Program-made: the position numbers and the translations under genes
The notes under the pieces: generated by a model
Seen by the model: the letters and a program-made list of their open reading frames with translations, nothing else
What the model was told of the DNA's origin: nothing
The model's database searches: none
Shown: positions 8,848 to 60,694 of the stretch, in pieces
How the letters are laid out: every line of letters starts with the position of its first letter
How positions within the stretch are numbered: the stretch's first letter is position 1
Assembly: GCA_021155085.1 (NCBI GenBank)
Contig: JAJNQA010000027.1
Span: 30,058-94,057 of the forward strand
Source of the DNA: Heliomicrobium sp.
GTDB taxonomy: Bacteria; Acidobacteriota; Blastocatellia; RBC074
Length of the DNA: 64,000 nt
Direction: 5' to 3'

Positions 8848-11800
8848 ATGCTTTCCAAAGAGTGGAAACAACGAAAAACAACTTACGATTTCATCATCAT
8901 TGGTTCTGGGTATGGAGGCGCAATCACCGCCGCACGCCTGACCGCCGCCACGCCTTCGCCGTCCGTCTGCCTGCTGGAACGCGGGCGCGAATGGGAGGTT
9001 GGCAAATTCCCCGATGACGTTGGTGAAGTCGCCCGCAGCGTCCGCAATCCCACCTTCAATCCCACGGGACTCTATGATTTTCTGCTCTTTCCTGAAATTT
9101 CAGTCATGAAAGGCTCCGGCCTCGGCGGGACCTCGCTGATCAACGCCAACGTGGCCATCGTGCCGGACGAAGAAGTCTTCAGGCAGCTTGCCTGGCCAAA
9201 CGCGATCAAGCTGCCGGAGTTGCTGCCGTATTACCAGAAGGCGAAAACCATGCTGGGCGCAAACCCCCACCCACGCGGAAATCCGGCACAGGCCGATTCG
9301 CTGTTGAAAGTTCGTGGCCTGGATAAACGCGCGCAGGAACTGAGCCAGCGGGCCTTTCCGCTCGACATCGTGGTCAGTTTCAAGGACGGCAAGAACGCGG
9401 CGGGCGTCGAACAGAAAGCCTGCATTGATTGCGGCGATTGCGTGACCGGCTGCAACGTCGGCGCGAAAAACACGCTTTACATGAATTACCTGCCGGTCGC
9501 CGCGCGGCAGGGCTGCGACATTTTCACGAAGACCGAAATCAAATGGATCGAAAAACTCAGCGGCGGCGGCTGGCGCGTTCACGGCGTGCGCTACAAGGAC
9601 CTGAATTTCACGGATGATTTCACGCTCGACGCGGGCAAGGTGATTCTGGCCGCCGGTTCGCTGGGCACGCCGGAGATTCTGCTGCGCTCGGAGTTTCGCG
9701 GTTTATCGCTTTCGCCCAAAGTGGGCACGCAGTTTTCCGGCAATGGCGATTTCTTCGCGCTGGCGTACAACGCGGATCAACAGTTGAACACCGTGGGCTT
9801 CGGCAAAAATCCCGGCCATAAGTGGGCGCAGCGCGGCAATGCGCCCGGGCCAAGCATTGTCGGGACCGTTCGCTACGGCGGGACAAATTCCAGCCTGCCG
9901 TTGGAAAAGCGTATGACGATTCAGGATTTTTCCTTTCCCAGCGCCTATGTCAGCGCGGCGATGATCGCGCTGGATTCGCTGGTCAATCTCGGCGGCGGAC
10001 AGGACACAGACCTCGGCGATGAAAAGGCCGAACGCGACCGCGTCCGGAAGAACAATCCGTTCGACCCTTATAAACAGGACAACGCCGCGTTCAATCACAC
10101 AATGCTCTATTTGATAATGGGGCACGACGACGGGAAGGGCGTTTTGCGGCTGAAGCATGAACAGGGACGCGTCGAAATTGATTGGGACAACGCCGGACGG
10201 CAGCAGGTCTTCAACCTGATCAACGAAGAGATTCGCCGCCATTCCCGCGCGCTGGGCGCAACCTTCGTCACCAATCCGCTGTGGGCCATTACCCCATCCA
10301 GAAACCTGATCACCGCGCATCCGCTGGGCGGTTGTCCGCTGGGCGATGATTATCTGCACGGCGCGGTGGATGAATTCGGGCGCGTCTTCGCGGGCGATGG
10401 CAATGTTCATGACGGATTGTTTGTGGCAGACGGCTCGTTGATTTCGACGGCGCTTGGGGTCAATCCGTTCCTGACCATTTCAGCCCTGTCGGAACGAATC
10501 GCCGACCGAATGGTCCGCCATCTGGGCGGCGAAGCTTACCCGGCGCGCCCGGTAACGGTCCCGGTTGGCGGGCTCGAGCCGGCGGAAATCACGAAGTACA
10601 AGGAAGACGACCTGGAACGCATCTTCAGCCGCGTTCAAACCGGCAGCATCGAAAAGATGGTCAACGGCGGCAAGGTCGAAATTGACGCGGCGCATGGAAT
10701 GATCCGCAACGACACCGTCTGGAAAGGCTTTTTTCCGCGCGGCCACGTGATGGACCGGCTTTCGACGGCATTTTTTGCCAGCTTCAGGAAACGCTTCAGC
10801 AAAACCGCCGATGGCAAATTCATCGGCGTCACCAGCGATTCCGATGGGCGCATCAACGCTAATAACAAGCTCGAAGAGATCACGCTGACCAAACGCACGG
10901 GCACGCTCGATCCGGGCAAATACATCAAATTAAGTTACACGGATCCGCAGTGGGCGGGCTTTTACGACATTTTCAAAGTCGTCAGCGATGACCTGCTGAT
11001 CGGGCGCGTTTATCTGGGACGCTACCCGGACGGCCATCGCCTGTTTACCTTCCCCATGGTCCGCAGCTACGGCCTGGACAATATGACCGTCCCCGATCAC
11101 AAGGCGATTTGGGATCAGGGCGCTGTGCCAGCGAAAGAGCAGTTGAGCGGATTGTGGGAAATGCACATGGTTTCCAACGCGCACAACACCGGCGTAGTGG
11201 CGTATTTGAAATTCGAGCACAAACCTGACGGGCGGCTGGAATCGCATTACCAATTCCTGGGTTTGATTGAAGGGTTGGCGGACGGAAGCTTCGGCCAGGA
11301 TCATTTCCGGATGGATGACTTCACGCGGTTTCACGACGAAATTCGTTTCGTCAATCCAGACATGCTGGTCGGCAAATACGTGACCGACGAACGCCCCGCC
11401 GTATTCAATTTGTTTGGCCCGGATTCGCTGGGACTTTTTCACCGCGAAAAAGGCGCGGACGGCACGACGCGTTTTGGCTTTTATTACTGGCTGAAACGCA
11501 GCACGCTGACCGAAACACCGGCAGTGGGCTTCCTGCGCCCATTGCTCGATACGCGCCTGCCGGAAGGCGTGGGAATGAGTTTTGACGAGGAGATGAACGG
11601 ATATTTCTTCCTAGGCTTCACGCCCCCCCCTGGACGCGCGGGCGATCAGCAGATCGAAGCCAGAATTCCCGCAAGCGGTAAACCCGCCGATGGCGAAGAG
11701 ATGAGTCTGGAAATGCGCATTACCGCGCGCGACCTCAACGAATTCATTGAAAGCACTGAACACGAAGCCCGTTTGGAAGGCACGATTCGCATTCAGAACT

Positions 11801-49682: not shown

Positions 49683-49711
49683 TTGACGGCCTTCCCGGAC
49701 AGGAGTATAAA
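49683..49711 (+). promoter_or_regulatory. near-consensus sigma70 promoter (-35 TTGACG, 17-bp spacer, -10 TATAAA) in AT-rich leader upstream of tRNA array
   Basis: TTGACG-gccttcccggacaggag-TATAAA. Confidence 0.6.
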
Positions 49712-50095
49712 ACGCGACGGTGAAAGTGAATGAAGTAGCTTTCAGCCAGTTCAAGGTAAAGATCAAATTTTCGGTAATTAATTTTCAAGACACTTTTCAG
49801 GACGCTATGTTGCTCAATGGACACAAAAACTTGATAGCCGCCAACGCGACAACGAAACGTCGCGCCGCCATCTCAGCATGTTGGCAATTTGGCGTCGTGG
49901 TGACCTTGGGAAGCAACCCGAATACGCCATCCAACAATTCGATTGATTCGATGATGCTGCGAGATAAAACCAGACGGGCGGGATCGCCCGAACGTTTAGT
50001 CGGCGGTTATCTCTTTAGTCATCAATGTTAAGCCAGCGGGAGCGGTTTCCCGCTCCCGAAAATTCCAAGTTCAAGTACACCAGGGATTTAAGGTC

Positions 50096-50140
50096 GAGCG
50101 GGCCGCTTCAACGAAAGTTCTGAAGCTTGCCCGCTTTTTC
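50096..50140 (+). terminator. rho-independent terminator/attenuator hairpin + TTTTT just upstream of first tRNA
   Basis: GCGGGC-CGCTTCA-acgaaagttc-TGAAGC-TT-GCCCGC-TTTTT. Confidence 0.6.
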
Positions 50141-50176
50141 CTTTTGCGGCAGCGCCTTCAGCAAAAAGGTTTCGAC

Positions 50177-50262
50177 GCCGGAGAAGCCCGATGGACGGGC
50201 GGCGGACTGTAAACCCGTTGTGGACGTGTGTCTGCAAGCAGGTTCGATTCCTGCCTCCGGCA
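50177..50262 (+). tRNA. tRNA-Tyr(GTA), type II (19-nt variable arm); non-canonical A8-A9
   Basis: acceptor GCCGGAG/CTCCGGC, loop CTGTAAA, T-arm GCAGG-TTCGATT-CCTGC, disc A; A31-C39 mismatch. Confidence 0.55.
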
Positions 50263-50267
50263 TTTCG

Positions 50268-50339
50268 GGGAGTATGTGGTAACTGGCAACCGGTCGGTCT
50301 CCAAAACCGATATTCCAGGTTCAAATCCTGGTACTCCTG
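50268..50339 (+). tRNA. tRNA-Trp(CCA)
   Basis: anticodon arm TCGGT-CTCCAAA-ACCGA, T-arm CCAGG-TTCAAAT-CCTGG, G1-U72; irregular D-arm. Confidence 0.6.
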
Positions 50340-50358
50340 TCAACGTTTGTAGCTATTT

Positions 50359-50446
50359 AGAGGCGTGGCGGAATTGGCAATCGCACTGGTCCGCTAAACC
50401 AGGGAGCTACTACAGTCTCGTGTGGGTTCGAGTCCCACCGCCTCTG
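50359..50446 (+). tRNA. tRNA-Ser(GCT), type II; C33 in anticodon loop
   Basis: acceptor AGAGGCG/CGCCTCT, CTGGT-CCGCTAA-ACCAG, long variable arm, T-arm GTGGG-TTCGAGT-CCCAC. Confidence 0.6.
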
Positions 50447-50465
50447 TCGAGTTATTTTTAGTTAC

Positions 50466-50550
50466 GGAGGGTTAGCCTAATTGGTAAGGCAGCAGTTTCG
50501 AAAACTGCCGTAGGATTGTACCTTTGAGGGTTCGAGTCCCTCACCCTCCT
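50466..50550 (+). tRNA. tRNA-Ser(CGA), type II; CCA encoded (50551-50553)
   Basis: acceptor GGAGGGT/ACCCTCC, GCAGT-TTCGAAA-ACTGC, T-arm GAGGG-TTCGAGT-CCCTC. Confidence 0.7.
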
Positions 50551-50600
50551 CCATTAAGTTCGGAGGTAATCAGCAACGCAATTAAGTTACAAATAGTTAT

Positions 50601-50684
50601 GGAGGGATGGCCGAATTGGCAAGGCAGTAGTTTTGAAAACTACCGGAGGTAACACTCTTCGGGGTTCGAGTCCCCGTCCCTTCG
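50601..50684 (+). tRNA. tRNA-Ser(TGA), type II
   Basis: acceptor GGAGGGA/TCCCTTC, GTAGT-TTTGAAA-ACTAC, T-arm CGGGG-TTCGAGT-CCCCG. Confidence 0.7.
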
Positions 50685-50715
50685 TCAGGTAGTAGTGTGT
50701 CTTGCAGGTACTTTG

Positions 50716-50791
50716 GCACTGGTAGCTCAGTTGGAATCAGAGCGCGGGCCTCCGAAGCCTGAGGTCGCGAGTTCGAGTCTCGCCCGGTGCA
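50716..50791 (+). tRNA. tRNA-Arg(CCG)
   Basis: acceptor GCACTGG/CCGGTGC, CGGGC-CTCCGAA-GCCTG, T-arm GCGAG-TTCGAGT-CTCGC. Confidence 0.7.
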
Positions 50792-50846
50792 TTTGACGTA
50801 AGTCGAACGTTATTTGAAAAGCCGGAAGTTATATTCAAATTACTTT

Positions 50847-50921
50847 GCGGGTGTGGCGCAAGCTGGTAGACGCGCAGCGCTAAGAACGCTGTTATTGGAG
50901 GTTCAAGTCCTCTCACCCGCA
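50847..50921 (+). tRNA. compact (type I, 75 nt) Leu-like tRNA with anticodon AAG
   Basis: acceptor GCGGGTG/CACCCGC, Leu-type D-arm GCG-CAAGCTGGTAGA-CGC, CAGCG-CTAAGAA-CGCTG, 5-nt variable loop, T-arm GGAGG-TTCAAGT-CCTCT, disc A. Confidence 0.5.
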
Positions 50922-50931
50922 TTTGGCGTTT

Positions 50932-51006
50932 GCAGGCATGGCGCAAATTGGCAGACGCGGCAGTCTCAAAAACTGCATTGTGAAGGTTCGAGTCCTTCTG
51001 CCTGCA
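50932..51006 (+). tRNA. compact (type I, 75 nt) Leu-like tRNA, anticodon CAA
   Basis: acceptor GCAGGCA/TGCCTGC, D-arm GCG-CAAATTGGCAGA-CGC, GCAGT-CTCAAAA-ACTGC, variable ATTGT, T-arm GAAGG-TTCGAGT-CCTTC, disc A. Confidence 0.55.
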
Positions 51007-51022
51007 TTATTGAAAGTTTTTT

Positions 51023-51098
51023 GTGGGTGTGGCGCAATTCAGGTAGACGCACCGGTCTCAGAAGCCGGTTGTTGGAGGTTCAAGTCCTCTCACCCACA
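51023..51098 (+). tRNA. compact (type I, 76 nt) Leu-like tRNA, anticodon CAG
   Basis: acceptor GTGGGTG/CACCCAC, D-arm GCG-CAATTCAGGTAGA-CGC, CCGGT-CTCAGAA-GCCGG, variable TTGTT, disc A. Confidence 0.55.
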
Positions 51099-51108
51099 TC
51101 AGATTTTC

Positions 51109-51181
51109 GTCGGCGTAGCTCAATTGGGAGAGCGCGAGTTTGCCAGGCTCGAGGTCGGGAGTTCAAACCTCCTCGCCGACT
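51109..51181 (+). tRNA. tRNA-Gly(GCC); CCA encoded (51182-51184)
   Basis: acceptor GTCGGCG/CGCCGAC, CGAGT-TTGCCAG-GCTCG, T-arm GGGAG-TTCAAAC-CTCCT, disc T. Confidence 0.7.
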
Positions 51182-51193
51182 CCATATTCTTTT

Positions 51194-51267
51194 GCACGCT
51201 TGGCCGAGTGGATTACAGGCGCAGGGCCGCAGCCCCTGTCAGGGCGGTTCGATTCCGTCAGCGTGCT
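51194..51267 (+). tRNA. Cys-like tRNA (anticodon GCA) with Ser-like D-arm, C33 and G37
   Basis: acceptor GCACGCT/AGCGTGC, disc T, CAGGG-CCGCAGC-CCCTG, T-arm GGCGG-TTCGATT-CCGTC. Confidence 0.45.
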
Positions 51268-51278
51268 TCATTTGATCT

Positions 51279-51354
51279 GCCGAAGTGGCGCAAACAGGCA
51301 GACGCGTGGAGCTTAAACCTCCGTCATTTGAGGGTTCGAGTCCCTCCTTCGGCA
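51279..51354 (+). tRNA. compact (type I, 76 nt) Leu-like tRNA, anticodon TAA
   Basis: acceptor GCCGAAG/CTTCGGC, D-arm GCG-CAAACAGGCAGA-CGC, TGGAG-CTTAAAC-CTCCG, short variable loop, T-arm GAGGG-TTCGAGT-CCCTC, disc A. Confidence 0.55.
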
Positions 51355-51365
51355 TTGTCAGTTTT

Positions 51366-51435
51366 TGCGGGTGGGCAAGTGCTCAGTTAGGTCTCATAAG
51401 CCTCGACTCGCTGGGAGCGTTACCCAGACCCGCAA
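51366..51435 (+). pseudogene. degenerate tRNA-like (CAT anticodon loop CTCATAA; non-canonical T-loop AGCGTTA)
   Basis: acceptor TGCGGGT/ACCCGCA pairs; D/T arms irregular. Confidence 0.3.
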
Positions 51436-51445
51436 TCAAAGTATG

Positions 51446-51521
51446 GGGCGCTGGGCAAGTCCGGTGAAGCCGTCGGTCTTTCAAGCTGAAGATCGTGGAT
51501 TCAAATCCCACACGACGCCCT
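51446..51521 (+). pseudogene. degenerate tRNA-like (TTC anticodon loop; T-stem A53-C61 mismatch and 2-nt insertion before 3' acceptor)
   Basis: GGGCGCTGGGCAAGT 5' end paralogous to 51366 copy; TCGGT-CTTTCAA-GCTGA. Confidence 0.3.
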
Positions 51522-51569
51522 ACTGTGTTTAGTTACATGATGTTACTCGGCAAGTAACTCGAAGTTACT

Positions 51570-51642
51570 GAGTCCGTGGCCTAATTGGCAAGGCAACAGC
51601 CTTTTAAGCTGTAAGATGTGGGTTCGATTCCCACCGGACTCA
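51570..51642 (+). tRNA. tRNA-Lys(TTT)
   Basis: acceptor GAGTCCG/CGGACTC, ACAGC-CTTTTAA-GCTGT, T-arm GTGGG-TTCGATT-CCCAC. Confidence 0.75.
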
Positions 51643-51660
51643 TTCGGATTTTTGAAGTTT

Positions 51661-51752
51661 GCTCCCGTAGCTTAAATGGAGAAAGCGGCGCGAAAATGAC
51701 GTGTCAGCATCGAGGGTCGCTGGAAATCCGGGTTCAAATCCCGGCTGGAGTC
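51661..51752 (+). tRNA. 92-nt tRNA-like gene with about 23-nt extra arm and non-canonical anticodon loop (AAAATGA); paralog of 51774 gene
   Basis: acceptor GCTCCCG/CTGGAGT (one C-U mismatch), D-arm GCTT-AAATGGAGA-AAGC, T-arm CCGGG-TTCAAAT-CCCGG. Confidence 0.35.
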
Positions 51753-51773
51753 TTTGTTTTTGGCTGCTGATTG

Positions 51774-51863
51774 GCTCCTGTAGCTCAACAGGCAGAGCGG
51801 CACGCTTATAACGTGTAAGCACCAGATCGGTGCGTGATCCGGGTTCGAATCCCGGCGGGAGCA
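51774..51863 (+). tRNA. 90-nt Ile-like tRNA, anticodon TAT, with about 22-nt stem-loop variable arm
   Basis: acceptor GCTCCTG/CGGGAGC, D-arm GCTC-AACAGGCA-GAGC, GCACG-CTTATAA-CGTGT, extra arm GCACC-agatc-GGTGC, T-arm CCGGG-TTCGAAT-CCCGG. Confidence 0.45.
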
Positions 51864-51874
51864 TCAGGATTTCT

Positions 51875-51949
51875 GGCGGGTGTAGCTCAGGCAGGCAGAG
51901 CGTCTGGCTGTGAACCAGAAAGCCGCCGGTTCAAATCCGGTCACTCGCC
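51875..51949 (+). tRNA. tRNA-His(GTG) with genome-encoded G-1
   Basis: G-1 + GCGGGTG/CACTCGC, disc C pairs G-1; TCTGG-CTGTGAA-CCAGA; T-arm GCCGG-TTCAAAT-CCGGT. Confidence 0.75.
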
Positions 51950-51967
51950 CTGATTTTTGAAGGTCTT

Positions 51968-52039
51968 TGGGATGTCGTCTAACTGGCAGGACGGTAGTCT
52001 TTGAAGCTATCTGTCGAGGTTCGAATCCTCGCATCCCGG
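51968..52039 (+). tRNA. tRNA-Gln(TTG), U1
   Basis: acceptor TGGGATG/CATCCCG, GTAGT-CTTTGAA-GCTAT, T-arm CGAGG-TTCGAAT-CCTCG. Confidence 0.65.
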
Positions 52040-52043
52040 TTTT

Positions 52044-52116
52044 GCACCTGAAGCTCAGTTGGCAGAGCACGCGGTTGATAACCGCGCGGTCGAAGGTTCG
52101 AGTCCTTCCGGGTGCA
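52044..52116 (+). tRNA. tRNA-Ile(GAT)
   Basis: acceptor GCACCTG/CGGGTGC, CGCGG-TTGATAA-CCGCG, T-arm GAAGG-TTCGAGT-CCTTC. Confidence 0.75.
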
Positions 52117-52126
52117 TCGAATTTGT

Positions 52127-52200
52127 GGGGCGTTGGTGTAGATGGTGAACACGCTCGGCTTTCAATCGAGAGATGGCCGGTTCGAGTCCGGTACGCCCTA
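52127..52200 (+). tRNA. tRNA-Glu(TTC)
   Basis: acceptor GGGGCGT/ACGCCCT, CTCGG-CTTTCAA-TCGAG, T-arm GCCGG-TTCGAGT-CCGGT. Confidence 0.7.
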
Positions 52201-52212
52201 CTCAAGTTTTAT

Positions 52213-52286
52213 GGGATCGTGGGCCAGTTGGAGTGGCTGCAGCCCTGTCAAGGCTGAGATCACGGGTTCGAGTCCCGTCGGTCCCG
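52213..52286 (+). tRNA. tRNA-Asp(GTC)
   Basis: acceptor GGGATCG/CGGTCCC, CAGCC-CTGTCAA-GGCTG, T-arm ACGGG-TTCGAGT-CCCGT. Confidence 0.75.
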
Positions 52287-52302
52287 TTTAGGATTTGAAA
52301 AT

Positions 52303-52375
52303 GGATCGGTAACTCAATGGTCAGAGTGCCTGCCTCTTAAGCAGGAAGTTGTGGGTTCAAGTCCCACCCGATCCA
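52303..52375 (+). tRNA. tRNA-Lys(CTT); CCA encoded (52376-52378)
   Basis: acceptor GGATCGG/CCGATCC, CCTGC-CTCTTAA-GCAGG, T-arm GTGGG-TTCAAGT-CCCAC. Confidence 0.75.
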
Positions 52376-52387
52376 CCAAAAAGTTTT

Positions 52388-52460
52388 TACAGGGTAGCTC
52401 AGTTGGCAGAGCGCCGGTCTGTTAAACCGGTCCGCGCGGGTTCGAGTCCCGCCCCTGTAG
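52388..52460 (+). tRNA. tRNA-Asn(GTT)
   Basis: acceptor TACAGGG/CCCTGTA, CCGGT-CTGTTAA-ACCGG, T-arm GCGGG-TTCGAGT-CCCGC. Confidence 0.75.
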
Positions 52461-52465
52461 CTTTT

Positions 52466-52542
52466 CAGAGTGTAGTTGCGGTTTGCGCAGAGCGCACGGC
52501 CCGGGCCCGTGAGGTCGCTCACTTCGAATCCTGCCACTCTGA
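52466..52542 (+). pseudogene. degenerate tRNA-like (acceptor CAGAGTG/CACTCTG pairs; anticodon hairpin CACGG-CCCGGGC-CCGTG; T-stem does not pair)
   Basis: TTCGAAT T-loop present but flanks unpaired. Confidence 0.3.
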
Positions 52543-52617
52543 TTTTAGCGGCGAATGCTGATGGAACTACATCTTGGAAAATGAACGTTTCATCAAATTT
52601 TTGTCGCCGCTTTTTTC

Positions 52618-52690
52618 GTGAGCGAAGCGCTAATGGCAGCGTGCTGGTCTTCCAAACCGGAGGTAGCGGGTTCGATCCCCGCCGCTCACT
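52618..52690 (+). tRNA. tRNA-Gly(TCC)
   Basis: acceptor GTGAGCG/CGCTCAC, CTGGT-CTTCCAA-ACCGG, T-arm GCGGG-TTCGATC-CCCGC; preceded by 8-bp-stem hairpin + T6 (52551-52616). Confidence 0.75.
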
Positions 52691-52695
52691 TTTTT

Positions 52696-52767
52696 GCTGG
52701 TGTAGCTCAACGGATGAGCCGCCGTCTCGTAAGCGGCAGGATATGGGTTCGAATCCCATCGCCAGCT
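52696..52767 (+). tRNA. tRNA-Thr(CGT)
   Basis: acceptor GCTGGTG/CGCCAGC, GCCGT-CTCGTAA-GCGGC, T-arm ATGGG-TTCGAAT-CCCAT. Confidence 0.7.
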
Positions 52768-52772
52768 TTGAT

Positions 52773-52844
52773 TGGGAGATCGTCTAATTGGCAGGATGGC
52801 AGATTCTGACTCTGTTGATTGTGGTTCGAATCCACATCTCCCAG
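52773..52844 (+). tRNA. tRNA-Gln(CTG), U1
   Basis: acceptor TGGGAGA/TCTCCCA, GCAGA-TTCTGAC-TCTGT, T-arm TGTGG-TTCGAAT-CCACA. Confidence 0.7.
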
Positions 52845-52850
52845 TTTTTT

Positions 52851-52923
52851 AGGAACGTAGCTCAGTGGCTAGAGCATTGGTCTTACAAACCAGAGGCCGT
52901 GGGTTCGAGTCCCACCGTTCCTA
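52851..52923 (+). tRNA. tRNA-Val(TAC)
   Basis: acceptor AGGAACG/CGTTCCT, TTGGT-CTTACAA-ACCAG, T-arm GTGGG-TTCGAGT-CCCAC; followed by 15-bp x2 tandem TTGCCCAATGCTTAT (52926-52955). Confidence 0.75.
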
Positions 52924-52965
52924 TTTTGCCCAATGCTTATTTGCCCAATGCTTATTTGAAAGCCT

Positions 52966-53038
52966 GGGATCGTAGCCAAACTGGAAAGGCGCCAGTCTTG
53001 CAAACTGGAAATTGTGGGTTCGAGCCCCACCGGTTCCA
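52966..53038 (+). tRNA. tRNA-Ala(TGC) with G3-U70 identity pair
   Basis: acceptor GGGATCG/CGGTTCC, CCAGT-CTTGCAA-ACTGG, T-arm GTGGG-TTCGAGC-CCCAC. Confidence 0.75.
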
Positions 53039-53048
53039 TTCTGATTTT

Positions 53049-53120
53049 CTGGGTGTGGGGCAGTGGCTGCCCACTTGCCTTGGGAGCAAGCCGACGCAGG
53101 TTCGAGTCCTGCCACCCAGA
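53049..53120 (+). tRNA. tRNA-Pro(TGG)
   Basis: acceptor CTGGGTG/CACCCAG, CTTGC-CTTGGGA-GCAAG, T-arm GCAGG-TTCGAGT-CCTGC. Confidence 0.75.
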
Positions 53121-53126
53121 CTTTAT

Positions 53127-53203
53127 GTTCGTGTAGCTCAGTGGAAATTTAGAGCGCTGGTCTACGAAACCAGAGGCCGAAGGTTCGAATCCTTCCACGA
53201 ACA
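53127..53203 (+). tRNA. tRNA-Arg(ACG)
   Basis: acceptor GTTCGTG/CACGAAC, CTGGT-CTACGAA-ACCAG, T-arm GAAGG-TTCGAAT-CCTTC. Confidence 0.75.
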
Positions 53204-53211
53204 TCAAATTT

Positions 53212-53283
53212 GGTTGGTTAGCACAACTGGCAGTGCGCTCGGCTGAAGCCCGAACGGACGGGGTTCGAGTCCTCGACCAACCA
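53212..53283 (+). tRNA. tRNA-Phe(GAA)
   Basis: acceptor GGTTGGT/ACCAACC, CTCGG-CTGAAGC-CCGAA, T-arm CGGGG-TTCGAGT-CCTCG; followed by 7-bp-stem hairpin 53290-53318. Confidence 0.7.
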
Positions 53284-53324
53284 TCAAATCAAATCTCCGA
53301 TTTCAAATTGGAGATTCGAGATGG

Positions 53325-53399
53325 GGTGATGTAGCTCAGTGGAATCAGAGCGACTGCCTCCTAAGCAGTAGGCCGTGAGTTCAAATCTCACCATCGCCA
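53325..53399 (+). tRNA. tRNA-Arg(CCT)
   Basis: acceptor GGTGATG/CATCGCC, ACTGC-CTCCTAA-GCAGT, T-arm GTGAG-TTCAAAT-CTCAC. Confidence 0.75.
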
Positions 53400-53407
53400 C
53401 TTCAAAT

Positions 53408-53481
53408 GTCCGCATAGCTCAGTTGGAGGCAGCACCCGCTCGGTACGCGGGAGGACGCCGGTTCGATTCCGGCTGCGGGCT
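53408..53481 (+). tRNA. tRNA-Thr(GGT); apparent C33 and 3-bp D-stem
   Basis: acceptor GTCCGCA/TGCGGGC, CCCGC-TCGGTAC-GCGGG, T-arm GCCGG-TTCGATT-CCGGC. Confidence 0.55.
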
Positions 53482-53497
53482 TAACCTGATAATCTAC

Positions 53498-53573
53498 GGG
53501 TCTGTCGTCTAATTGGAATCAAGGCGTCCGGCTTCTAACCGGGATGATGCAGGTTCGAGTCCTGCCAGGCCCT
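53498..53573 (+). tRNA. tRNA-Arg(TCT)
   Basis: acceptor GGGTCTG/CAGGCCC, TCCGG-CTTCTAA-CCGGG, T-arm GCAGG-TTCGAGT-CCTGC. Confidence 0.7.
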
Positions 53574-53597: not shown

Positions 53598-54155
53598 ATG
53601 GTAATCAGCAGAAAAGTCTTGCTACTCAACGCTTCTTACGAACCGCTCAGTGTGGTGACTGCGCCGAAGGCGTTGACGCTAGTTTTCAGGCACGTGGCCG
53701 AAGTGCTGGAGGCGGATCAAGGACACGTGCTGCGTTCGCCACGGTTTGTTTTCCAGGTGCCGTCGGTGATCCGGTTGACGCAATACATCAATATCCGCTC
53801 GCGGCAAAACCGCGTGGCCAATCGCCATCGGATTCTGGCGCGTGACCATTACCGCTGCCAGTATTGCGGCAAGCGTGGAAGTGCCTTTGAACTGACGCTT
53901 GATCACATCCTACCCAGATCACGTGGCGGTCGAACAGTGGCCGAAAACCTGGTTGCGTCTTGCCAGGCTTGTAACAACCGCAAAGGTGACCGGACGCCGG
54001 AAGAAGCCCGGATGCCTTTGCTGACTAATCCGGCGGCGTTGTTTTATGGATTGGAGCGGGTGGAGTTGCGGCAGGCGGCCGCGAATCGTCCGGAATGGAG
54101 AAAATATCTTTTCCTCGAACACGCGGAAGAGGAACTGGCGGTAATCTCCGCCTGA
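53598..54155 (+). CDS. HNH endonuclease
   Basis: ACGGAG SD; HNH motif DHYRCQYCGKRGSAFELTLDHILPRSRGG...NLVASCQACNNRKGDRT. Confidence 0.8.
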   Translation: MVISRKVLLLNASYEPLSVVTAPKALTLVFRHVAEVLEADQGHVLRSPRFVFQVPSVIRLTQYINIRSRQNRVANRHRILARDHYRCQYCGKRGSAFELTLDHILPRSRGGRTVAENLVASCQACNNRKGDRTPEEARMPLLTNPAALFYGLERVELRQAAANRPEWRKYLFLEHAEEELAVISA

Positions 54156-54315
54156 GGTTCCCAGTCGTCGCTGGCGCTGATTCGAGCAATGGAGTCTGTG
54201 TCGTTCTGCTGCCCGAATCGGCGCTGGCGGGCGAATTTTTTGAACTACATTTTTTGTCTGTCTTGACAGTTTCGCGAACCATCTGCTACTTTCCCGGCTT
54301 CGTTATTAGACATAC

Positions 54316-54390
<75 letters not shown>

Positions 54391-59890: not shown

Positions 59891-60694
59891 ATGAAACGGA
59901 AAGTCTCGGAATTCGCCTACGGTTTTGTTCTGACACACGAACTGGTGCGCACTTATGGCTATTTGCCGACCGATGTGCCGCTGCCCGGAATGGAAAAGAA
60001 ACGTAAGAAGGCGAAAGCTGGAGACGATGCCGGCGCTTTGCCGCCCAAACAGTATGGTTATCCGCTCTTCCTGCAATTCAAAGCCAGCGAATTTATGAAG
60101 CGCAAGAACGCGGGCGAATCGAAGCTGGTGGGTTTGCCGTATTTCCGGTTTCCGATCTATCGCAAGACGCAGTCGAATCAGCAGCCGTTGTTGTGCGAGA
60201 TCGAAAAGCGCGGTTACCCGGTTTATTACGCAACGCCGAAGATGCACGAAGCGGTCAATTTGAATGGAGCTTTCTTCGACGAACGCGTTGTCGCCCATTC
60301 GCTGTTTGTCAGTCCGCTGGAAATCGGAGAATTGCCGGACAATCTAAATCATCGTGTGGTTTTCAGCGGCACGACGAAAGAAGTTTATTTCTGTCCGAAG
60401 CCACGTCAGCTCAAACGTGCGATTCACGGCGAAGACTTTGCCGAAAAGATCCAGGAAGTTCTTTCCACGCGAGAGCCGGAACTGCTCGATGATGATTTCT
60501 TTCAGCGGCTGGCGAGCGATTTGGTCTCGCTGGTTTCGCCGAACCGCAGAATCTTCGATGAATTATCGCGCGGGAAATTTGAGATGACTGCGGCGACGTT
60601 TGCTAACTATCTGGCACGGACTTTGTTCGATTGCGAATTACTGATCATTCCGGCGAAGGCTGTGGATGAAGACGGAACGACTTTGCACTTATGA
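59891..60694 (+). CDS. hypothetical protein (267 aa) inserted between pheS and pheT, stop overlaps pheT start (ATGA)
   Basis: no recognisable motif. Confidence 0.5.

What the first reader, a model, noticed from the sequence alone, without database searches (positions are those of the whole stretch)
50177..53573. 3.4-kb head-to-tail array of 36 tRNA-like genes encoding a near-complete amino-acid set
All 36 genes are on the + strand with 5-60 nt spacers. Anticodons by manual folding: Tyr, Trp, Ser x3 (GCT, CGA, TGA), Arg x4 (CCG, ACG, CCT, TCT), Leu-like x4 (AAG, CAA, CAG, TAA), Gly x2, Cys-like, Lys x2, His (G-1 encoded), Gln x2, Ile, a TAT tRNA, Glu, Asp, Asn, Thr x2, Val, Ala (G3-U70), Pro, Phe, plus 3 degenerate copies. 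Only four encode CCA. Many members deviate from bacterial norms (see separate findings). The array sits between an AT-rich promoter/terminator leader and an HNH endonuclease, directly upstream of the conserved thrS-infC-rpmI-rplT-pheST cluster. Dense near-complete tRNA arrays with aberrant members are typical of phage or mobile tRNA arrays.
Basis: seen in the sequence. Interest (0 to 1): 0.85.

Follow-up and report, generated by a model that had tools for sequence, protein, structure and literature searches.

The report
Attenuator-controlled spare tRNA gene array
A soil acidobacterium (class Blastocatellia) carries a 3.4-kb operon of about 33 extra tRNA genes, apparently switched by a ribosome-sensing leader and followed by an HNH nuclease gene; it is a chromosomal relative of the long tRNA arrays known from cyanobacteria, plasmids and phages, but with oddly shaped tRNAs and a kind of control not described for such arrays.

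Summary
ARAGORN finds 33 plus-strand tRNA genes at 50177-53573, and all 33 reach Rfam's tRNA threshold. Three further tRNA-like copies and one Y-RNA-like hairpin lie in the gaps.

It is not the housekeeping set. It has no canonical Met or initiator tRNA and cannot read ACA. Relatives carry divergent dispersed copies of the same anticodons. Sister clades keep the neighbouring genes but lack the array.

It is not a recent phage island either. The same array, leader and HNH gene recur in about 40 Blastocatellia genomes and over 100 soil contigs.

It belongs to the known long tRNA array (L-array) kind. Homologues of its HNH lie in or beside tRNA arrays on a Nostoc plasmid, a Mycolicibacterium plasmid and an acidobacterial jumbo phage.

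Four features look new:
- A translated leader ORF of about 70 codons ends 3-5 nt before an invariant hairpin, with antiterminator and terminator alternatives. The same leader precedes RtcB and Ro60/Y-RNA genes elsewhere.
- The tRNA-Leu genes lack the long variable arm.
- A covariation-supported tRNA(UAU) has a long variable arm.
- The array is a gene-by-gene mosaic of divergent alleles.

Expression, charging and the direction of regulation are untested.

The parts
49683..49711 (+). Promoter-like element: TTGACG (49683-49688), 17-nt spacer, TATAAA (49706-49711)
   Evidence: Conserved as TTGAC-N17-(G)TATAA at the same place in L001, L015, L018 and L024 (alignment A1). Coordinates. The consensus scanner missed it because its rule requires T at the last -10 position. 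Function is inferred.
49807..50031 (+). Leader ORF of 74 codons (MLLNGHKN...GGYLFSHQC*), stop TAA at 50029-50031
   Evidence: A frame of at least 60 codons closes at a stop (TAA, TAG or TGA) 3-4 nt before GCGGGAGCGG in 27 of 27 genome loci analysed. Counted from the conserved Met the ORF is 63-76 codons. In soil contigs, 99 of 107 have a stop 3-5 nt before the hairpin closing a frame of at least 55 codons. The peptide is weakly constrained: differences at codon positions 1/2/3 are 214/213/277. No Pfam, NCBIfam or PHROG family matches.
49950..50023 (+). Hairpin inside the 3' end of the leader ORF (GAUGAUGCUGCGAGAUAAA paired with UUAUCUCUUUAGUCAUC)
   Evidence: Predicted in the window and in L001. 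It coincides with the best-conserved peptide motifs, MMLRDK and GGYLFSHQ. Its role is unknown.
50037..50058 (+). Attenuator hairpin 1 (regions 1:2): CGGGAGCGG-UUUC-CCGCUCCCG
   Evidence: Invariant in 17 of 17 aligned loci and present upstream of arrays in about 35 loci. It forms in the minimum-free-energy fold.
50059..50089 (+). Middle hairpin, which brings regions 2 and 3 together
   Evidence: An equivalent helix with a different sequence occurs in the distant families L043 and L031.
50096..50145 (+). Intrinsic terminator (regions 3:4): GAGCGGGC...GCCCGC followed by UUUUUCCUUUU, ending 31 nt before tRNA-Tyr
   Evidence: Fold of 50027-50150: -53.4 kcal/mol, z = -4.6. With region 1 masked and region 4 not yet made, CCCGCUC (region 2) pairs with GAGCGGG (region 3) as an antiterminator. 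The same happens in L043 and L031.
50177..50262 (+). tRNA-Tyr(GTA), long variable arm, A73
   Evidence: (46.4 bits).
50268..50339 (+). tRNA-Trp(CCA), G73
   Evidence: (56.4 bits).
50359..50446 (+). tRNA-Ser(GCT), long variable arm, G73
   Evidence: (52.9 bits).
50466..50553 (+). tRNA-Ser(CGA), long variable arm, U73, CCA encoded
   Evidence: (60.8 bits).
50601..50684 (+). tRNA-Ser(TGA), long variable arm, G73
   Evidence: (53.5 bits).
50716..50791 (+). tRNA-Arg(CCG), A73
   Evidence: (63.7 bits).
50847..50921 (+). tRNA-Leu(AAG), 75 nt, Leu-type D arm, A73, no long variable arm
   Evidence: (54.0 bits). The orthologue carries GAG in L001, L002, L008 and L018.
50932..51006 (+). tRNA-Leu(CAA), 75 nt, A73, no long variable arm
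   Evidence: (55.6 bits).
51023..51098 (+). tRNA-Leu(CAG), 76 nt, A73, no long variable arm
   Evidence: (56.5 bits).
51109..51184 (+). tRNA-Gly(GCC), U73, CCA encoded
   Evidence: (60.3 bits).
51194..51267 (+). tRNA-Cys(GCA), U73, C at position 33, weak D stem
   Evidence: 43.2 bits with sensitive filters.
51279..51354 (+). tRNA-Leu(TAA), 76 nt, A73, no long variable arm
   Evidence: (47.7 bits).
51367..51434 (+). Aberrant tRNA-like gene with anticodon loop CUCAUAA (CAU), a 4-bp D stem with a tetraloop, and T loop AGCGUUA
   Evidence: Found by relaxed ARAGORN. It folds as a cloverleaf. It is nearly invariant in L001, L006, L008 and L009 (A6), so it is conserved rather than decaying.
51445..51522 (+). 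Degenerate Glu(TTC) copy
   Evidence: Partial Rfam hit at 51452-51511, 34.6 bits. ARAGORN calls the orthologues Glu(TTC) in L001, L006, L008 and L009. The window copy has a 3-nt insertion in the 3' acceptor strand (A6).
51570..51642 (+). tRNA-Lys(TTT), A73
   Evidence: (74.9 bits).
51661..51752 (+). Paralogue of the TAT tRNA with a long variable arm and anticodon AAT; one acceptor pair is broken
   Evidence: 33.8 bits; z = -0.07. The anticodon loop differs among relatives: aat, aaa, aaaa, aaac, gat. It is probably degenerating.
51774..51863 (+). tRNA(TAT), 90 nt, with a long variable arm; 7/5 cloverleaf, 4-bp D stem, A73, A37
   Evidence: (63.0 bits). Present in 26 of 39 arrays. In the alignment, 17 of 25 pairs show compensatory changes and only one cell in total is unpaired.
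51875..51949 (+). tRNA-His(GTG) with encoded G-1 and C73
   Evidence: (65.5 bits).
51968..52039 (+). tRNA-Gln(TTG), G73
   Evidence: (54.3 bits).
52044..52116 (+). tRNA-Ile(GAT), A73
   Evidence: (67.0 bits).
52127..52200 (+). tRNA-Glu(TTC)
   Evidence: 60.7 bits. It is 100% identical to the L009 copy but at most 79% identical to any tRNA of the other relatives compared.
52213..52286 (+). tRNA-Asp(GTC), G73
   Evidence: (59.7 bits).
52303..52378 (+). tRNA-Lys(CTT), A73, CCA encoded
   Evidence: (75.7 bits).
52388..52460 (+). tRNA-Asn(GTT), U1-A72, G73
   Evidence: (66.4 bits).
52466..52542 (+). Degenerate Pro(CGG) copy with a broken T arm
   Evidence: It aligns with intact Pro(CGG/TGG) genes in L002, L006 and L008 (A7). 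Neither ARAGORN nor Rfam detects it.
52548..52610 (+). Y-RNA-like hairpin of the YrlB type, carrying GGCGAAUG
   Evidence: Rfam YrlA 37.5 bits, E = 2.5e-7, below the gathering score of 69. YrlB 26.9 bits, aligned end to end. It is nearly invariant in 10 related arrays. GGCGAAUG fits GNCGAAN0-1G, the proposed Ro60/Rsr-binding motif (PMC4201824). The related contig L248 has Ro60 followed by a fuller YrlA-like RNA of 53.3 bits inside such an array.
52618..52690 (+). tRNA-Gly(TCC), U73
   Evidence: (53.7 bits).
52696..52767 (+). tRNA-Thr(CGT)
   Evidence: (61.1 bits).
52773..52844 (+). tRNA-Gln(CTG), U1-A72, G73
   Evidence: (56.7 bits).
52851..52923 (+). tRNA-Val(TAC), A73
   Evidence: (76.2 bits).
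52966..53038 (+). tRNA-Ala(TGC), G3-U70, A73
   Evidence: (65.1 bits).
53049..53120 (+). tRNA-Pro(TGG), C1-G72, A73
   Evidence: (60.0 bits).
53127..53203 (+). tRNA-Arg(ACG), enlarged D loop
   Evidence: (68.2 bits).
53212..53283 (+). tRNA-Phe(GAA), A73
   Evidence: 54.7 bits. It is 99% identical to the L001 and L006 copies, but no tRNA in L009 or L002 is more than 70% identical to it.
53325..53399 (+). tRNA-Arg(CCT), A73
   Evidence: (70.7 bits).
53408..53481 (+). tRNA-Thr(GGT), C at position 33
   Evidence: (51.7 bits).
53498..53573 (+). tRNA-Arg(TCT)
   Evidence: (54.9 bits).
53598..54155 (+). HNH endonuclease gene (185 aa); GGAG lies 8 nt before the ATG; it starts 24 nt after the last tRNA with no intervening terminator
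   Evidence: Pfam HNH_5 and HNH. Full-length match to phrog_16726, E = 1e-31. Only the HNH domain matches solved structures. The CxxC...DH...N...CxxCN motif is intact. Orthologues follow arrays in about 45 loci. They also end LEADER-RtcB-HNH operons that have no tRNAs.

Best explanation
This is a chromosomal long tRNA array (L-array) that is old within the class Blastocatellia. It supplies about 33 supernumerary tRNAs for 19 amino acids.

Proposed mechanism (inferred):
1. One promoter at about 49683-49711 drives the whole unit.
2. The transcript carries a translated leader ORF (49807-50031) and a three-hairpin attenuator (50037-50145).
3. When no ribosome covers region 1, hairpin 1:2 forms. 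Region 3 is then free to form the 3:4 terminator 31 nt before tRNA-Tyr, and transcription stops.
4. A ribosome sitting at the leader stop codon, 5 nt before the first paired base of the hairpin, melts region 1. Region 2 then pairs with region 3 as an antiterminator, and RNA polymerase reads into the array and the HNH gene.
5. RNase P and RNase Z cut out the tRNAs and the embedded Y-RNA-like hairpin. The CCA-adding enzyme completes the tRNAs that lack encoded CCA.

The same leader also precedes RtcB RNA ligase and Ro60/Y-RNA genes in related contigs. I therefore read the array as the tRNA cargo of a translation-stress or RNA-repair operon, analogous to the Anabaena trn operon and its co-regulated rtcB gene.

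Shown: anatomy, conservation, covariation, redundancy and gene linkage. Inferred: transcription, the sign of the switch, charging, and the physiological trigger.
For: The array is real and tRNA structure is under selection.
- 33 ARAGORN genes, all reaching Rfam's tRNA threshold.
- Discriminator bases and other identity elements are canonical for most isotypes.
- 39 related arrays of at least 15 tRNAs keep cloverleaf structures while HNH identity ranges from 59% to 88%.
- In the tRNA(UAU) alignment, 17 of 25 pairs show compensatory changes.

The array is supernumerary.
- It has no canonical Met or initiator tRNA and no UGU anticodon, so AUG (17.5 per 1000 codons) and ACA (6.8 per 1000) cannot be read. 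It also has no G34 tRNA for GCC, GUC, UCC, CUC or CCC.
- In relatives, array copies and dispersed copies of the same anticodon differ. Val(GAC) copies are 63-68% identical and Arg(TCG) copies 76-79%. The dispersed Arg copy is identical in four genomes, while the array copies differ among them.
- Eleven loci with 78-81% identical HNH have no array; those whose downstream sequence is available keep tRNA-Val(GAC) and thrS.

The leader is an attenuator.
- The promoter motif is conserved.
- The leader ORF stays open, and its stop sits at a fixed distance from the hairpin while the stop codon type varies.
- Hairpin 1 is invariant and the terminator is conserved.
- The 2:3 antiterminator forms when region 1 is masked, in three divergent families.
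- Only 31 nt separate the terminator from the first tRNA, leaving no room for a second promoter.

The stress-operon reading.
- Operon variants found: LEADER-RtcB-HNH; LEADER-tRNAs-RtcB-tRNAs-HNH-tRNAs-Ro60-YrlA; LEADER-tRNA-Ro60.
- The window array holds a Y-RNA-like hairpin.
- In Anabaena the trn L-array, its neighbouring HNH gene and rtcB are co-induced when translation is impaired (PMC8421152).
Against: - There are no expression, processing or aminoacylation data for any of these arrays.
- The promoter is only a consensus match, and the scanning tool did not call it.
- The leader peptide is weakly conserved and shows no enrichment of particular codons. A ribosome stalled far upstream in the ORF would not melt hairpin 1. 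The design could therefore switch the array ON when translation is efficient, not when it is stressed.
- In the window, once region 4 is present the terminator is thermodynamically favoured even with region 1 masked. The model therefore depends on folding kinetics.
- Distant families carry a TTGACA or TTGATA motif and an extra element of about 200 nt after the terminator. This could be a second promoter or a second control layer.
- Several window members are degenerate: the Glu-like, Pro-like and AAT copies.
- Redundancy was shown in relatives, not in this genome, of which only 64 kb is visible.
Confidence: 0.6

Rival explanations
1. It is the organism's ordinary housekeeping tRNA cluster, with most of the genome's tRNA genes collected at one locus next to thrS-infC-pheST.
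For: - It covers 19 amino acids with mostly canonical identity elements.
- It sits beside core translation genes.
- It is widely conserved in the class.
- Cultured relatives (Chloracidobacterium, 46-49 tRNAs; Pyrinomonas, 55 RNA genes) have ordinary totals.
Against: - No canonical Met or initiator tRNA and no reader for ACA, and no G34 tRNA for GCC, GUC, UCC, CUC or CCC.
- Divergent dispersed copies of Val(GAC) and Arg(TCG) coexist with array copies in relatives.
- Close relatives lack the array; those with downstream sequence keep HNH, tRNA-Val and thrS.
- A terminator stands directly in front of the array.
- The array is a mosaic and evolves faster than the dispersed copies.
- It includes degenerate members.
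Confidence: 0.06
2. It is a recently acquired phage or mobile-element tRNA island, spread by the adjacent HNH homing endonuclease.
For: - The HNH family is linked to phage and plasmid tRNA arrays and matches phrog_16726.
- An acidobacterial jumbo phage has 41 tRNAs, including tRNA-Leu genes with a short variable arm.
- GC content is slightly lower than the window (0.54 against 0.56).
- The gene-by-gene mosaic implies exchange between arrays.
- The published L-array concept invokes horizontal transfer.
Against: - No integrase, transposase or phage genes flank it.
- There is no close match in phages, plasmids or IMG/VR.
- Array, leader and HNH occur in all deep branches of the Blastocatellia HNH tree, and array-less loci form nested clades, which points to loss rather than gain.
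- HNH divergence roughly tracks thrS divergence in the close group.
- HNH persists without any tRNAs, both alone and in LEADER-RtcB-HNH operons. It is therefore not simply a homing device for the array.
Confidence: 0.1
3. The array is a bank of spare or decoy tRNAs that protects translation against tRNA-cleaving toxins such as anticodon nucleases, contact-dependent or colicin-type tRNases and phage or defence nucleases. Its odd shapes and rapid allele turnover would be products of an arms race. This rivals the generic translational-stress reading on the selective cause, not on the anatomy.
For: - Divergent alleles of the same anticodon sit at the same array position.
- Array copies evolve faster than dispersed copies.
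- tRNA structural classes are swapped and some anticodon loops are unusual, such as C33 in Cys and Thr(GGT).
- The leader is linked to RtcB, which repairs cleaved tRNAs, and to Ro60/Y RNA.
- A 2026 paper states that mycobacterial tRNA array units are considered a putative anti-defence system (PMC12803027 abstract).
Against: - No tRNase or toxin gene was identified at the locus.
- The HNH was not shown to act on RNA.
- Nothing here measures resistance to cleavage.
- The mosaic could arise from neutral recombination among repeats.
Confidence: 0.25
4. It is a non-functional relic: a selfish or decaying array that is kept silent by the upstream terminator and simply tolerated.
For: - Three or four degenerate members in the window.
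- L-arrays in Acidithiobacillus and Anabaena were first reported as poorly expressed.
- The array was lost in several clades.
- L035 keeps a leader remnant without an array.
Against: - Cloverleaf structures and identity elements persist over family- to order-level divergence, with many compensatory changes.
- The leader ORF stop position and the attenuator are conserved in more than 100 sequences.
- The aberrant CAU gene and the Y-RNA-like hairpin are nearly invariant.
Confidence: 0.05

Closest known systems
L-arrays, such as the trn operon of Anabaena sp. PCC 7120 (Santamaria-Gomez et al. 2021, PMC8421152)
   Same: - Long, same-strand, non-periodic array of 20-40 tRNA genes that adds redundant copies of existing anticodons rather than new ones.
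- A neighbouring HNH endonuclease of the same protein family. Homologues lie on 20 Nostoc plasmids, one of which was checked and sits next to an array.
- A few pseudogenes.
- A link to rtcB.
   Different: - In cyanobacteria the HNH lies upstream of the array; here it is downstream and probably co-transcribed.
- Control in Anabaena is by 9-nt direct repeats over the -10 box. Here it is a translated leader plus a terminator/antiterminator.
- This array is chromosomal, conserved across a whole class and apparently inherited vertically, not sprinkled by horizontal transfer.
- That survey listed Acidobacteria among the phyla with only short accretive arrays.
tRNA array units of Acidithiobacillus ICEs, Mycobacterium chromosomes, plasmids and phages, and Firmicutes (Tran et al. 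2016, PMC4758250; Morgado and Vicente 2018, PMC5966550)
   Same: - Meets the formal definition of at least 20 tRNA genes at 2 or more per kb.
- Adds redundancy of core isoacceptors.
- An HNH homologue sits inside the pCBMA213_1 array.
   Different: - Not on a recognisable mobile element.
- Acidobacteria were not among the phyla reported.
- Leu tRNAs in pCBMA213_1 are the normal long type.
Phage tRNA clusters, such as Tunturiibacter phage Tunturi_5
   Same: - Best phage match to the HNH (44% identity), lying inside a 41-tRNA cluster that also holds RtcB and a CCA-adding enzyme.
- Two Leu tRNAs with a short variable arm and A73.
   Different: - The phage cluster is interrupted by many ORFs.
- No similarity to the leader was found.
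- The phage tRNAs encode CCA.
- No tRNA(UAU) with a long variable arm was seen there.
Leader-peptide transcription attenuators (trp, his, pheST operons; antibiotic-inducible leaders of the ermC or cat type). Compared from my own knowledge of these systems.
   Same: - A short translated ORF.
- Mutually exclusive 1:2, 2:3 and 3:4 pairings.
- An intrinsic terminator just before the regulated genes.
   Different: - The ORF is long (63-76 codons).
- It shows no run of regulatory codons.
- It ends before region 1, so only a ribosome at or next to the stop codon can melt hairpin 1.
- The cargo is tRNA genes or RNA-repair genes, not biosynthetic or resistance genes.
The rsr-yrlBA-rtcBA RNA-repair operon of Salmonella and bacterial Y RNAs (Chen et al. 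2014, PMC4201824; Hughes et al. 2020, PMC7790460)
   Same: - Related arrays carry RtcB, Ro60/Rsr and YrlA/YrlB-like RNAs on one strand.
- The window hairpin has the GNCGAAN0-1G motif and a long stem.
   Different: - No Rsr or RtcB lies in this 64-kb window.
- The hairpin lacks the tRNA-like domain and scores below Rfam's threshold.
- Regulation is not by RtcR and sigma-54.
allo-tRNA(UAU) of Acidobacteria (Mukai et al. 2017, PMC5389517)
   Same: An acidobacterial tRNA with a UAU anticodon and a long variable arm.
   Different: The tRNA here has a canonical 7/5 acceptor/T-stem arrangement, a normal 4-bp D stem with a GG loop, and A73. Allo-tRNAs have 8/4 or 9/3 arrangements, a D arm resembling that of tRNA-Sec, and serine identity elements.

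Membership tests
tRNA array unit (Tran et al. 2016) | At least 20 tRNA genes at a density of 2 or more per kb | tested here: met
   33 genes in 3.4 kb, or 9.7 per kb. Definition taken from the PMC4758250 abstract.
L-array (Santamaria-Gomez et al. 2021) | Long array, all genes in one orientation and close enough to be co-transcribed, non-periodic | tested here: met
   All genes are on the + strand, spacers are 4-55 nt once degenerate copies are counted, and the anticodon order shows no repeating pattern.
L-array (Santamaria-Gomez et al. 2021) | Contributes supernumerary genes that are redundant with a housekeeping set | tested here: inconclusive
   Shown for Val(GAC) and Arg(TCG) in relatives. 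Implied here by the missing Met, initiator and Thr(UGU) tRNAs and by array-less sister clades. The rest of this genome is not visible.
L-array (Santamaria-Gomez et al. 2021) | Sprinkled phylogenetic distribution caused by horizontal transfer | tested here: not met
   Within Blastocatellia the array is present in all deep HNH branches and absent only from nested clades. HNH divergence tracks thrS divergence in the close group. Exchange of single genes between arrays does occur.
L-array (Santamaria-Gomez et al. 2021) | Neighbouring HNH endonuclease gene | tested here: met
   HNH at 53598-54155. It is homologous to HNH genes next to or inside the Nostoc, Mycolicibacterium and phage arrays.
L-array (Santamaria-Gomez et al. 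2021) | Silent by default and induced by translational stress | not testable with these tools
   Only the attenuator anatomy and the linkage to RtcB/Ro60 bear on this.
Prophage or integrative element carrying tRNAs | Flanking integrase, phage structural or conjugation genes; attachment repeats | tested here: not met
   The flanks are a permease, a peptidase, a kinase and thrS-infC-pheST. No close phage, plasmid or IMG/VR relative was found. Attachment repeats were not searched for systematically.
Leader-peptide transcription attenuator | A translated short ORF upstream of the terminator | tested here: met
   The ORF stays open and its stop position is fixed while the stop codon type varies, in 27 of 27 genome loci and 99 of 107 soil contigs. 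Translation itself was not observed.
Leader-peptide transcription attenuator | Mutually exclusive 1:2, 2:3 and 3:4 structures with an intrinsic terminator | tested here: met
   in three divergent families.
Leader-peptide transcription attenuator | Regulatory codons placed so that a stalled ribosome masks region 1 | tested here: not met
   Region 1 lies after the stop codon. No codon enrichment was seen in the peptides, and region 1 has no conserved upstream pairing partner. Only a ribosome at or next to the stop codon could act.
Bacterial Y RNA (YrlA/YrlB) | GNCGAAN0-1G motif in the 5' strand of a long stem | tested here: met
   GGCGAAUG within the stem at 52548-52610. Motif from PMC4201824.
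Bacterial Y RNA (YrlA/YrlB) | Reaches the Rfam gathering score | tested here: not met
   YrlA 37.5 bits against 69; YrlB 26.9 bits against 97.
Bacterial Y RNA (YrlA/YrlB) | Encoded near a Ro60/Rsr gene, on the same strand | tested here: not met
   tblastn with the L248 Rsr finds nothing in the window, and the neighbouring ORFs carry other domains. The condition is met in the related contig L248: Ro60 at 9011-10579 and YrlA-like at 11109-11239.
allo-tRNA (Mukai et al. 2017) | 12-bp acceptor branch arranged 8/4 or 9/3, and a long D stem with a tetraloop | tested here: not met
   The TAT tRNA folds 7/5 with a 4-bp D stem and a normal GG loop in 21 aligned sequences.
Bacterial tRNA-Leu | A73 and a Leu-type D arm | tested here: met
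   All four genes have A73 and the D-arm sequence GUGGCGCAA..GG.AGACGC. E. coli LeuRS needs A73 and D/T-loop tertiary contacts (PMC9976931).
Bacterial tRNA-Leu | [quoted passage not shown] | tested here: not met
   The variable regions are 4-5 nt long. Across the array-bearing loci, 118 Leu genes are short and 10 are long. The rule is quoted from PMC9976931.

The most novel reading that the evidence does not exclude
The array is the tRNA cargo of an undescribed, class-wide translation-rescue operon.
- Transcription is gated by where a ribosome sits at the end of a leader ORF of about 70 codons.
- The constant partner is an HNH nuclease.
- The interchangeable cargos are spare tRNAs, RtcB ligase and Ro60/Y RNA.
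- Its tRNAs have systematically swapped structural class: Leu without the long variable arm, and Ile(UAU) and, in sister arrays, Trp with one. This would make them distinct from the housekeeping pool, for example resistant to tRNA-targeting nucleases or handled differently by modification and charging enzymes.

A sharper sub-case: LeuRS charges the long-armed, A73-bearing tRNA(UAU), so that AUA is conditionally read as Leu.
Probability: 0.3. Interest if true: 0.85.

Novelty: new variant of a known kind. Interest (0 to 1): 0.72.

Why it matters
- **Function of long tRNA arrays.** Their role is still largely unknown; only the Anabaena array has been studied functionally. Here the array is an old, conserved, chromosomal feature of an abundant soil class, which argues for a real function rather than genomic baggage.
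- **A testable control mechanism.** The leader and attenuator form a cis-acting device that links ribosome status to synthesis of spare tRNAs. The same device also precedes RtcB and Ro60 genes. This ties three stress systems, previously connected only by co-regulation in one cyanobacterium, into one physical operon family.
- **Exceptions to tRNA shape rules.** A recent review states that tRNA-Leu always carries a long variable arm outside animal mitochondria. The short-armed Leu genes here break that rule, and the long-armed tRNA(UAU), and the long-armed tRNA-Trp of sister arrays, depart from the usual short-armed form. Both offer natural material for studying tRNA identity and for engineering orthogonal tRNAs.

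Tried and rejected
- **Phage and plasmid nucleotide searches.** Blastn of the whole array found only 70-85% matches the size of a single tRNA.
- **IMG/VR scan for the hairpin-1 motif.** It gave 60 hits, none next to a tRNA array, so these are chance GC-rich palindromes.
- **HNH search in IMG/VR.** Only 3 distant relatives, one of them next to 9 tRNAs.
- **Rfam on the leader at a permissive threshold.** No T-box, riboswitch or other known leader. The extra element of about 200 nt in Pyrinomonadaceae-type arrays also has no match.
- **Consensus promoter scan.** It called nothing, because the conserved -10 is TATAAA.
- **Insertion borders.** Aligning against array-less loci failed, because the intergenic regions are too divergent.
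- **allo-tRNA reading of the TAT gene.** Rejected: it folds 7/5, not 8/4.
- **The leader ORF as an ordinary conserved protein.** Weak third-position excess and no family match. Part of its conservation reflects RNA hairpins within it.
- **An upstream 'region 0' that could pair with region 1,** which would allow stalls far upstream to be sensed. No consistent partner in five families.
- **Not done.** I did not predict the HNH structure or run the large protein-database searches, because the answer would not change the verdict on the array.

Full report
**1. Observation**

ARAGORN reports 33 tRNA genes on the + strand between 50177 and 53573. One more, Val(GAC), lies at 54316-54387. Rfam's tRNA model scores 31 of the array genes at 46-76 bits with default filters, against a gathering score of 29. 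With sensitive filters it also scores the Cys gene (43.2 bits) and the AAT gene (33.8 bits).

The three larger gaps hold further tRNA-derived sequences:
- A CAU tRNA-like gene at 51367-51434.
- A Glu(TTC) orthologue at 51445-51522, with a 3-nt insertion in its acceptor strand.
- A Pro(CGG) orthologue at 52466-52542, with a broken T arm.

Three genes encode CCA, not four. The housekeeping Val(GAC) next door also lacks CCA. The rest of the 64-kb window contains no other tRNA gene.

**2. Organism and surroundings**

Close relatives of the adjacent HNH protein (59-88% identity) all come from Blastocatellia, Pyrinomonadaceae or Chloracidobacterium-like metagenome-assembled genomes of the phylum Acidobacteriota. 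Some records carry inconsistent Firmicutes-type names.

The genes flanking the array are an amino-acid permease, thrS, infC, pheS and pheT. None is a phage or mobility gene. GC content is 0.54 in the array, 0.45 in the leader and 0.56 in the window.

**3. Conservation of the array**

In about 45 of the 61 Blastocatellia-type loci, a same-strand array of 15-41 tRNA genes ends just before the HNH start. In the closest relatives (L001, L002, L006, L008, L009, L015, L018) the gene order matches the window.

Eleven loci with 78-81% identical HNH have no array. Those whose downstream sequence is available keep tRNA-Val(GAC) and thrS. In a neighbour-joining tree of HNH proteins, these array-less loci form two clades nested among array-bearing ones. 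Three more isolated losses are seen, and one of them (L035) retains a leader remnant. The simplest history is an array-plus-HNH unit that is ancestral to the class and was lost several times.

Earlier surveys did not report such arrays in Acidobacteria. Cultured Chloracidobacterium strains (46-49 tRNAs) and Pyrinomonas (55 RNA genes) have ordinary totals, so they probably lack one.

**4. The array is supernumerary, not the housekeeping set**

- It has no canonical Met or initiator tRNA and no UGU anticodon. AUG (17.5 per 1000 codons in the window's long ORFs) and ACA (6.8 per 1000) therefore cannot be read. It also lacks a G34 tRNA for the abundant codons GCC, GUC, UCC, CUC and CCC.
- In relatives where both copies are visible, the array Val(GAC) is only 63-68% identical to the dispersed Val(GAC). 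The array Arg(TCG) is 76-79% identical to a dispersed Arg(TCG). That dispersed copy is identical in four genomes, while the array copies differ among them.
- Array-less sister clades must obtain all their tRNAs from elsewhere in the genome.

**5. The tRNAs look functional but unusual**

Discriminator bases and other identity marks fit bacterial rules for most isotypes:
- His: G-1 and C73.
- Ala: G3-U70.
- Gly and Cys: U73.
- Pro: C1-G72 and A73.
- Asn and Gln(CUG): U1-A72 and G73.
- Leu, Ile, Val, Phe, Lys and Tyr: A73.

U at position -1 is common (22 of the 31 array genes tabulated); from my own knowledge this is the base RNase P prefers at that position.

*tRNA-Leu without the long variable arm.* All four Leu genes are 75-76 nt long. 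They keep a Leu-type D arm and A73 but have a 4-5-nt variable loop in place of the long arm. Across the array-bearing loci, 118 Leu genes are short and 10 are long. Two short Leu genes also occur in the acidobacterial jumbo phage Tunturi_5. [quoted passage not shown] It also reports that E. coli LeuRS needs A73 and D/T-loop contacts, not the arm (PMC9976931). Charging by LeuRS is therefore plausible but untested.

*tRNA(UAU) with a long variable arm.* The 90-nt TAT gene has a canonical 7/5 cloverleaf, a 4-bp D stem, A37, A73 and a 5' half resembling Ile(GAU). It also has a 4-7-bp variable stem. It occurs in 26 of 39 arrays. In an alignment of 21 sequences, 17 of 25 pairs show compensatory changes and only one cell is unpaired. 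It is not an allo-tRNA. AUA is the rarest sense codon in the window, at 1.1 per 1000. The neighbouring AAT gene is a degenerating paralogue whose anticodon loop differs among relatives.

*Mosaic structure.* The array is a mosaic of divergent alleles. Phe is 99% identical to the L001 and L006 copies, yet no tRNA in L009 or L002 is more than 70% identical to it. Glu and Asn are 99-100% identical to the L009 copies, but at most 79% and 74% identical, respectively, to any tRNA in the other relatives compared. Single genes or short blocks are evidently exchanged between arrays.

**6. The leader**

The 640 nt upstream of the array are conserved in array-bearing relatives. They are absent from L011, where the permease and HNH genes are only about 280 nt apart.

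The parts, in order, are:
- A TTGACG-N17-TATAAA promoter-like site (49683-49711).
- An ORF (49807-50031).
- An invariant 9-bp hairpin (50037-50058).
- A middle hairpin (50059-50089).
- An intrinsic terminator (50096-50145), ending 31 nt before tRNA-Tyr.

In all 27 genome loci analysed, a frame of at least 60 codons closes at a TAA, TAG or TGA stop 3-4 nt before GCGGGAGCGG; from the conserved Met the ORF is 63-76 codons. The peptide itself diverges almost freely, with differences at codon positions 1/2/3 of 214/213/277. A metagenome scan with an attenuator pattern returned 120 soil contigs. Of the 107 with enough upstream sequence, 99 show the same arrangement, with a stop 3-5 nt before the hairpin. 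Of the 100 with enough downstream sequence, 77 have a tRNA within 600 nt, most often Tyr.

A stop codon fixed in position but variable in type, closing a frame that stays open in many divergent lineages, is the signature of a translated regulatory ORF.

Region 2 (CCCGCUC) is complementary both to region 1 and to region 3 (GAGCGGG), and region 3 is complementary to region 4. This four-way constraint explains why the sequence is invariant. Folding with region 1 removed gives the 2:3 antiterminator, closed over the middle hairpin, in the window, L043 and L031. With region 1 present, hairpin 1 forms and region 3 is left free for the terminator.

A ribosome with the stop codon in its A site would cover roughly the first five paired bases of hairpin 1. 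This estimate rests on my own knowledge of ribosome footprints. I conclude that the array is controlled by ribosome-dependent attenuation.

**7. What the switch senses**

This is not settled. No upstream segment pairs consistently with region 1. A ribosome stalled far inside the ORF would therefore leave hairpin 1 intact and favour termination. Only a ribosome lingering at the end of the ORF gives read-through. That could mean slow termination or recycling, which is a form of translational stress. It could equally mean tight transcription-translation coupling, which signals good growth.

The gene linkage favours the stress reading. In the soil contigs the same leader precedes other cargos:
- RtcB then HNH, with no tRNAs (L173, L174, L215, L227, L238).
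- tRNAs, RtcB, tRNAs, HNH, tRNAs, then Ro60/Rsr and a YrlA-like RNA (L248, and the first part of this order in L171).
- A single tRNA followed by Ro60 (L185, L258).

RtcB and Ro60/Y RNA are RNA repair and quality-control factors. In Anabaena, rtcB and the HNH gene are co-induced with the L-array when translation is impaired (PMC8421152).

**8. The Y-RNA-like hairpin**

The 63-nt hairpin at 52548-52610 lies between the Pro-like copy and Gly(UCC). It matches Rfam YrlA at 37.5 bits (E = 2.5e-7 in a 121-nt search, below the gathering score of 69). It aligns end to end with YrlB. It is nearly invariant in ten related arrays. It contains GGCGAAUG, which fits the proposed Ro60-binding motif GNCGAAN0-1G (PMC4201824). 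No Rsr or RtcB gene lies in this window, so membership in the Y-RNA family is not established. The L248 operon makes common descent likely.

**9. The HNH gene**

Its start lies 24 nt after the last tRNA, preceded by GGAG, with no terminator between them. It is therefore probably the last gene of the operon.

Homologues (38-44% identity over most of the length) lie inside or beside tRNA arrays in phage Tunturi_5, plasmid pCBMA213_1 and plasmid pNFSY08. They are common in tRNA-rich actinophages and cyanophages, and the protein matches phrog_16726 over its full length. Only the HNH domain has solved relatives, in IscB and Cas9.

The HNH persists alone in array-less genomes and also in LEADER-RtcB-HNH operons. 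It therefore looks like a functional partner of the operon rather than only a homing device for the array. What it cuts is unknown.

**10. Verdict**

The finding is real. It belongs to the known L-array or tRNA-array-unit kind, but it fails one published criterion, patchy distribution caused by horizontal transfer. It adds four features I did not find described:
- A leader-ORF attenuator, shared with RtcB and Ro60 operons.
- tRNA-Leu without the long variable arm.
- tRNA(UAU) with a long variable arm.
- An embedded Y-RNA-like module.

I rate it a new variant of a known kind, with interest 0.72. All functional statements remain inferences from sequence.

Noticed in passing
window 52548-52610: A conserved hairpin inside the array matches Rfam YrlA and YrlB below threshold and carries the GNCGAAN0-1G motif. 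The related contig L248 has Ro60/Rsr plus a fuller YrlA-like RNA (53.3 bits) inside such an array.
   Followed up: yes
window 51367-51434: A tRNA-like gene with a CAU anticodon loop, a tetraloop D arm and a non-canonical T loop (AGCGUUA). It is nearly invariant among close relatives. It may be the array's Met or Ile2 equivalent, or a non-translational RNA.
   Followed up: partly
L173, L174, L215, L227, L238 (metagenome contigs); also L171, L248, L185, L258: The same leader ORF and attenuator precede RtcB-HNH operons without tRNAs, and operons that mix tRNAs with RtcB and Ro60. The leader is therefore a regulatory module of a wider RNA-repair gene set.
   Followed up: partly
L037, L039, L042-L048, L050, L052, L054, L057, L059: between the leader terminator and the first tRNA (for example L044 6585-6782): Pyrinomonadaceae-type arrays carry an extra conserved structured element of about 200 nt. 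It starts with GUUGUUUGAUAACUGAAGU and ends with GCCCUCAUCGUUUUUUACUAUAAC. It has no Rfam match and may be a second control layer or a promoter.
   Followed up: partly
L038 11813-12212; L039 9796-9867; L040 11387-11459; L041 11736-11808; L045 11331-11403; L046 11052-11124; L050 7376-7448; L057 11181-11255; L060 11766-11841: About 1-2 kb downstream of the HNH gene lie 71-76-nt tRNA-like genes. Most share the acceptor sequence UACAUAC, but their anticodons differ between relatives (AGA, UGA, GGA, UAA, GAG, GAA, UUA, UCA, GAC).
   Followed up: no
L044 6874-6961, L047 3882-3969, L048 5480-5568, L054 6284-6371, L059 7171-7258; also L044 6968-7057 and L059 7265-7354: Pyrinomonadaceae arrays hold 88-89-nt tRNA-Trp(CCA) genes with a variable-arm hairpin and G73-CCA. 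They also hold 90-nt genes that ARAGORN calls Ala(CGC). These are further cases of unusual variable arms.
   Followed up: no
L026 4403, L027 7150, L028 2991, L029 478: A second copy of the leader ORF end plus hairpin 1 lies inside these arrays, just before Lys(UUU), with no obvious terminator after it.
   Followed up: no
L248 5558-6499; also L031 4939-5757, L034 9020-9802, L036, L039, L048, L214: A conserved ORF of about 313 aa with no Pfam match recurs between the tRNAs and the HNH gene in several arrays.
   Followed up: no
window 59891-60694: A 267-aa ORF with no Pfam or NCBIfam match lies between pheS and pheT.
   Followed up: no
window 54263-54292: A TTGACA-N17-CTACTT promoter-like site lies just upstream of the housekeeping tRNA-Val(GAC). 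This suggests that gene is transcribed independently of the array.
   Followed up: no
L076 (Proteobacteria metagenome-assembled genome), 4927-11143: A 40%-identical HNH homologue sits in the middle of an 18-tRNA cluster that also encodes a distant Ro60-like protein (22% identity) and a short Leu(CAG). The HNH-array association extends beyond Acidobacteriota.
   Followed up: no
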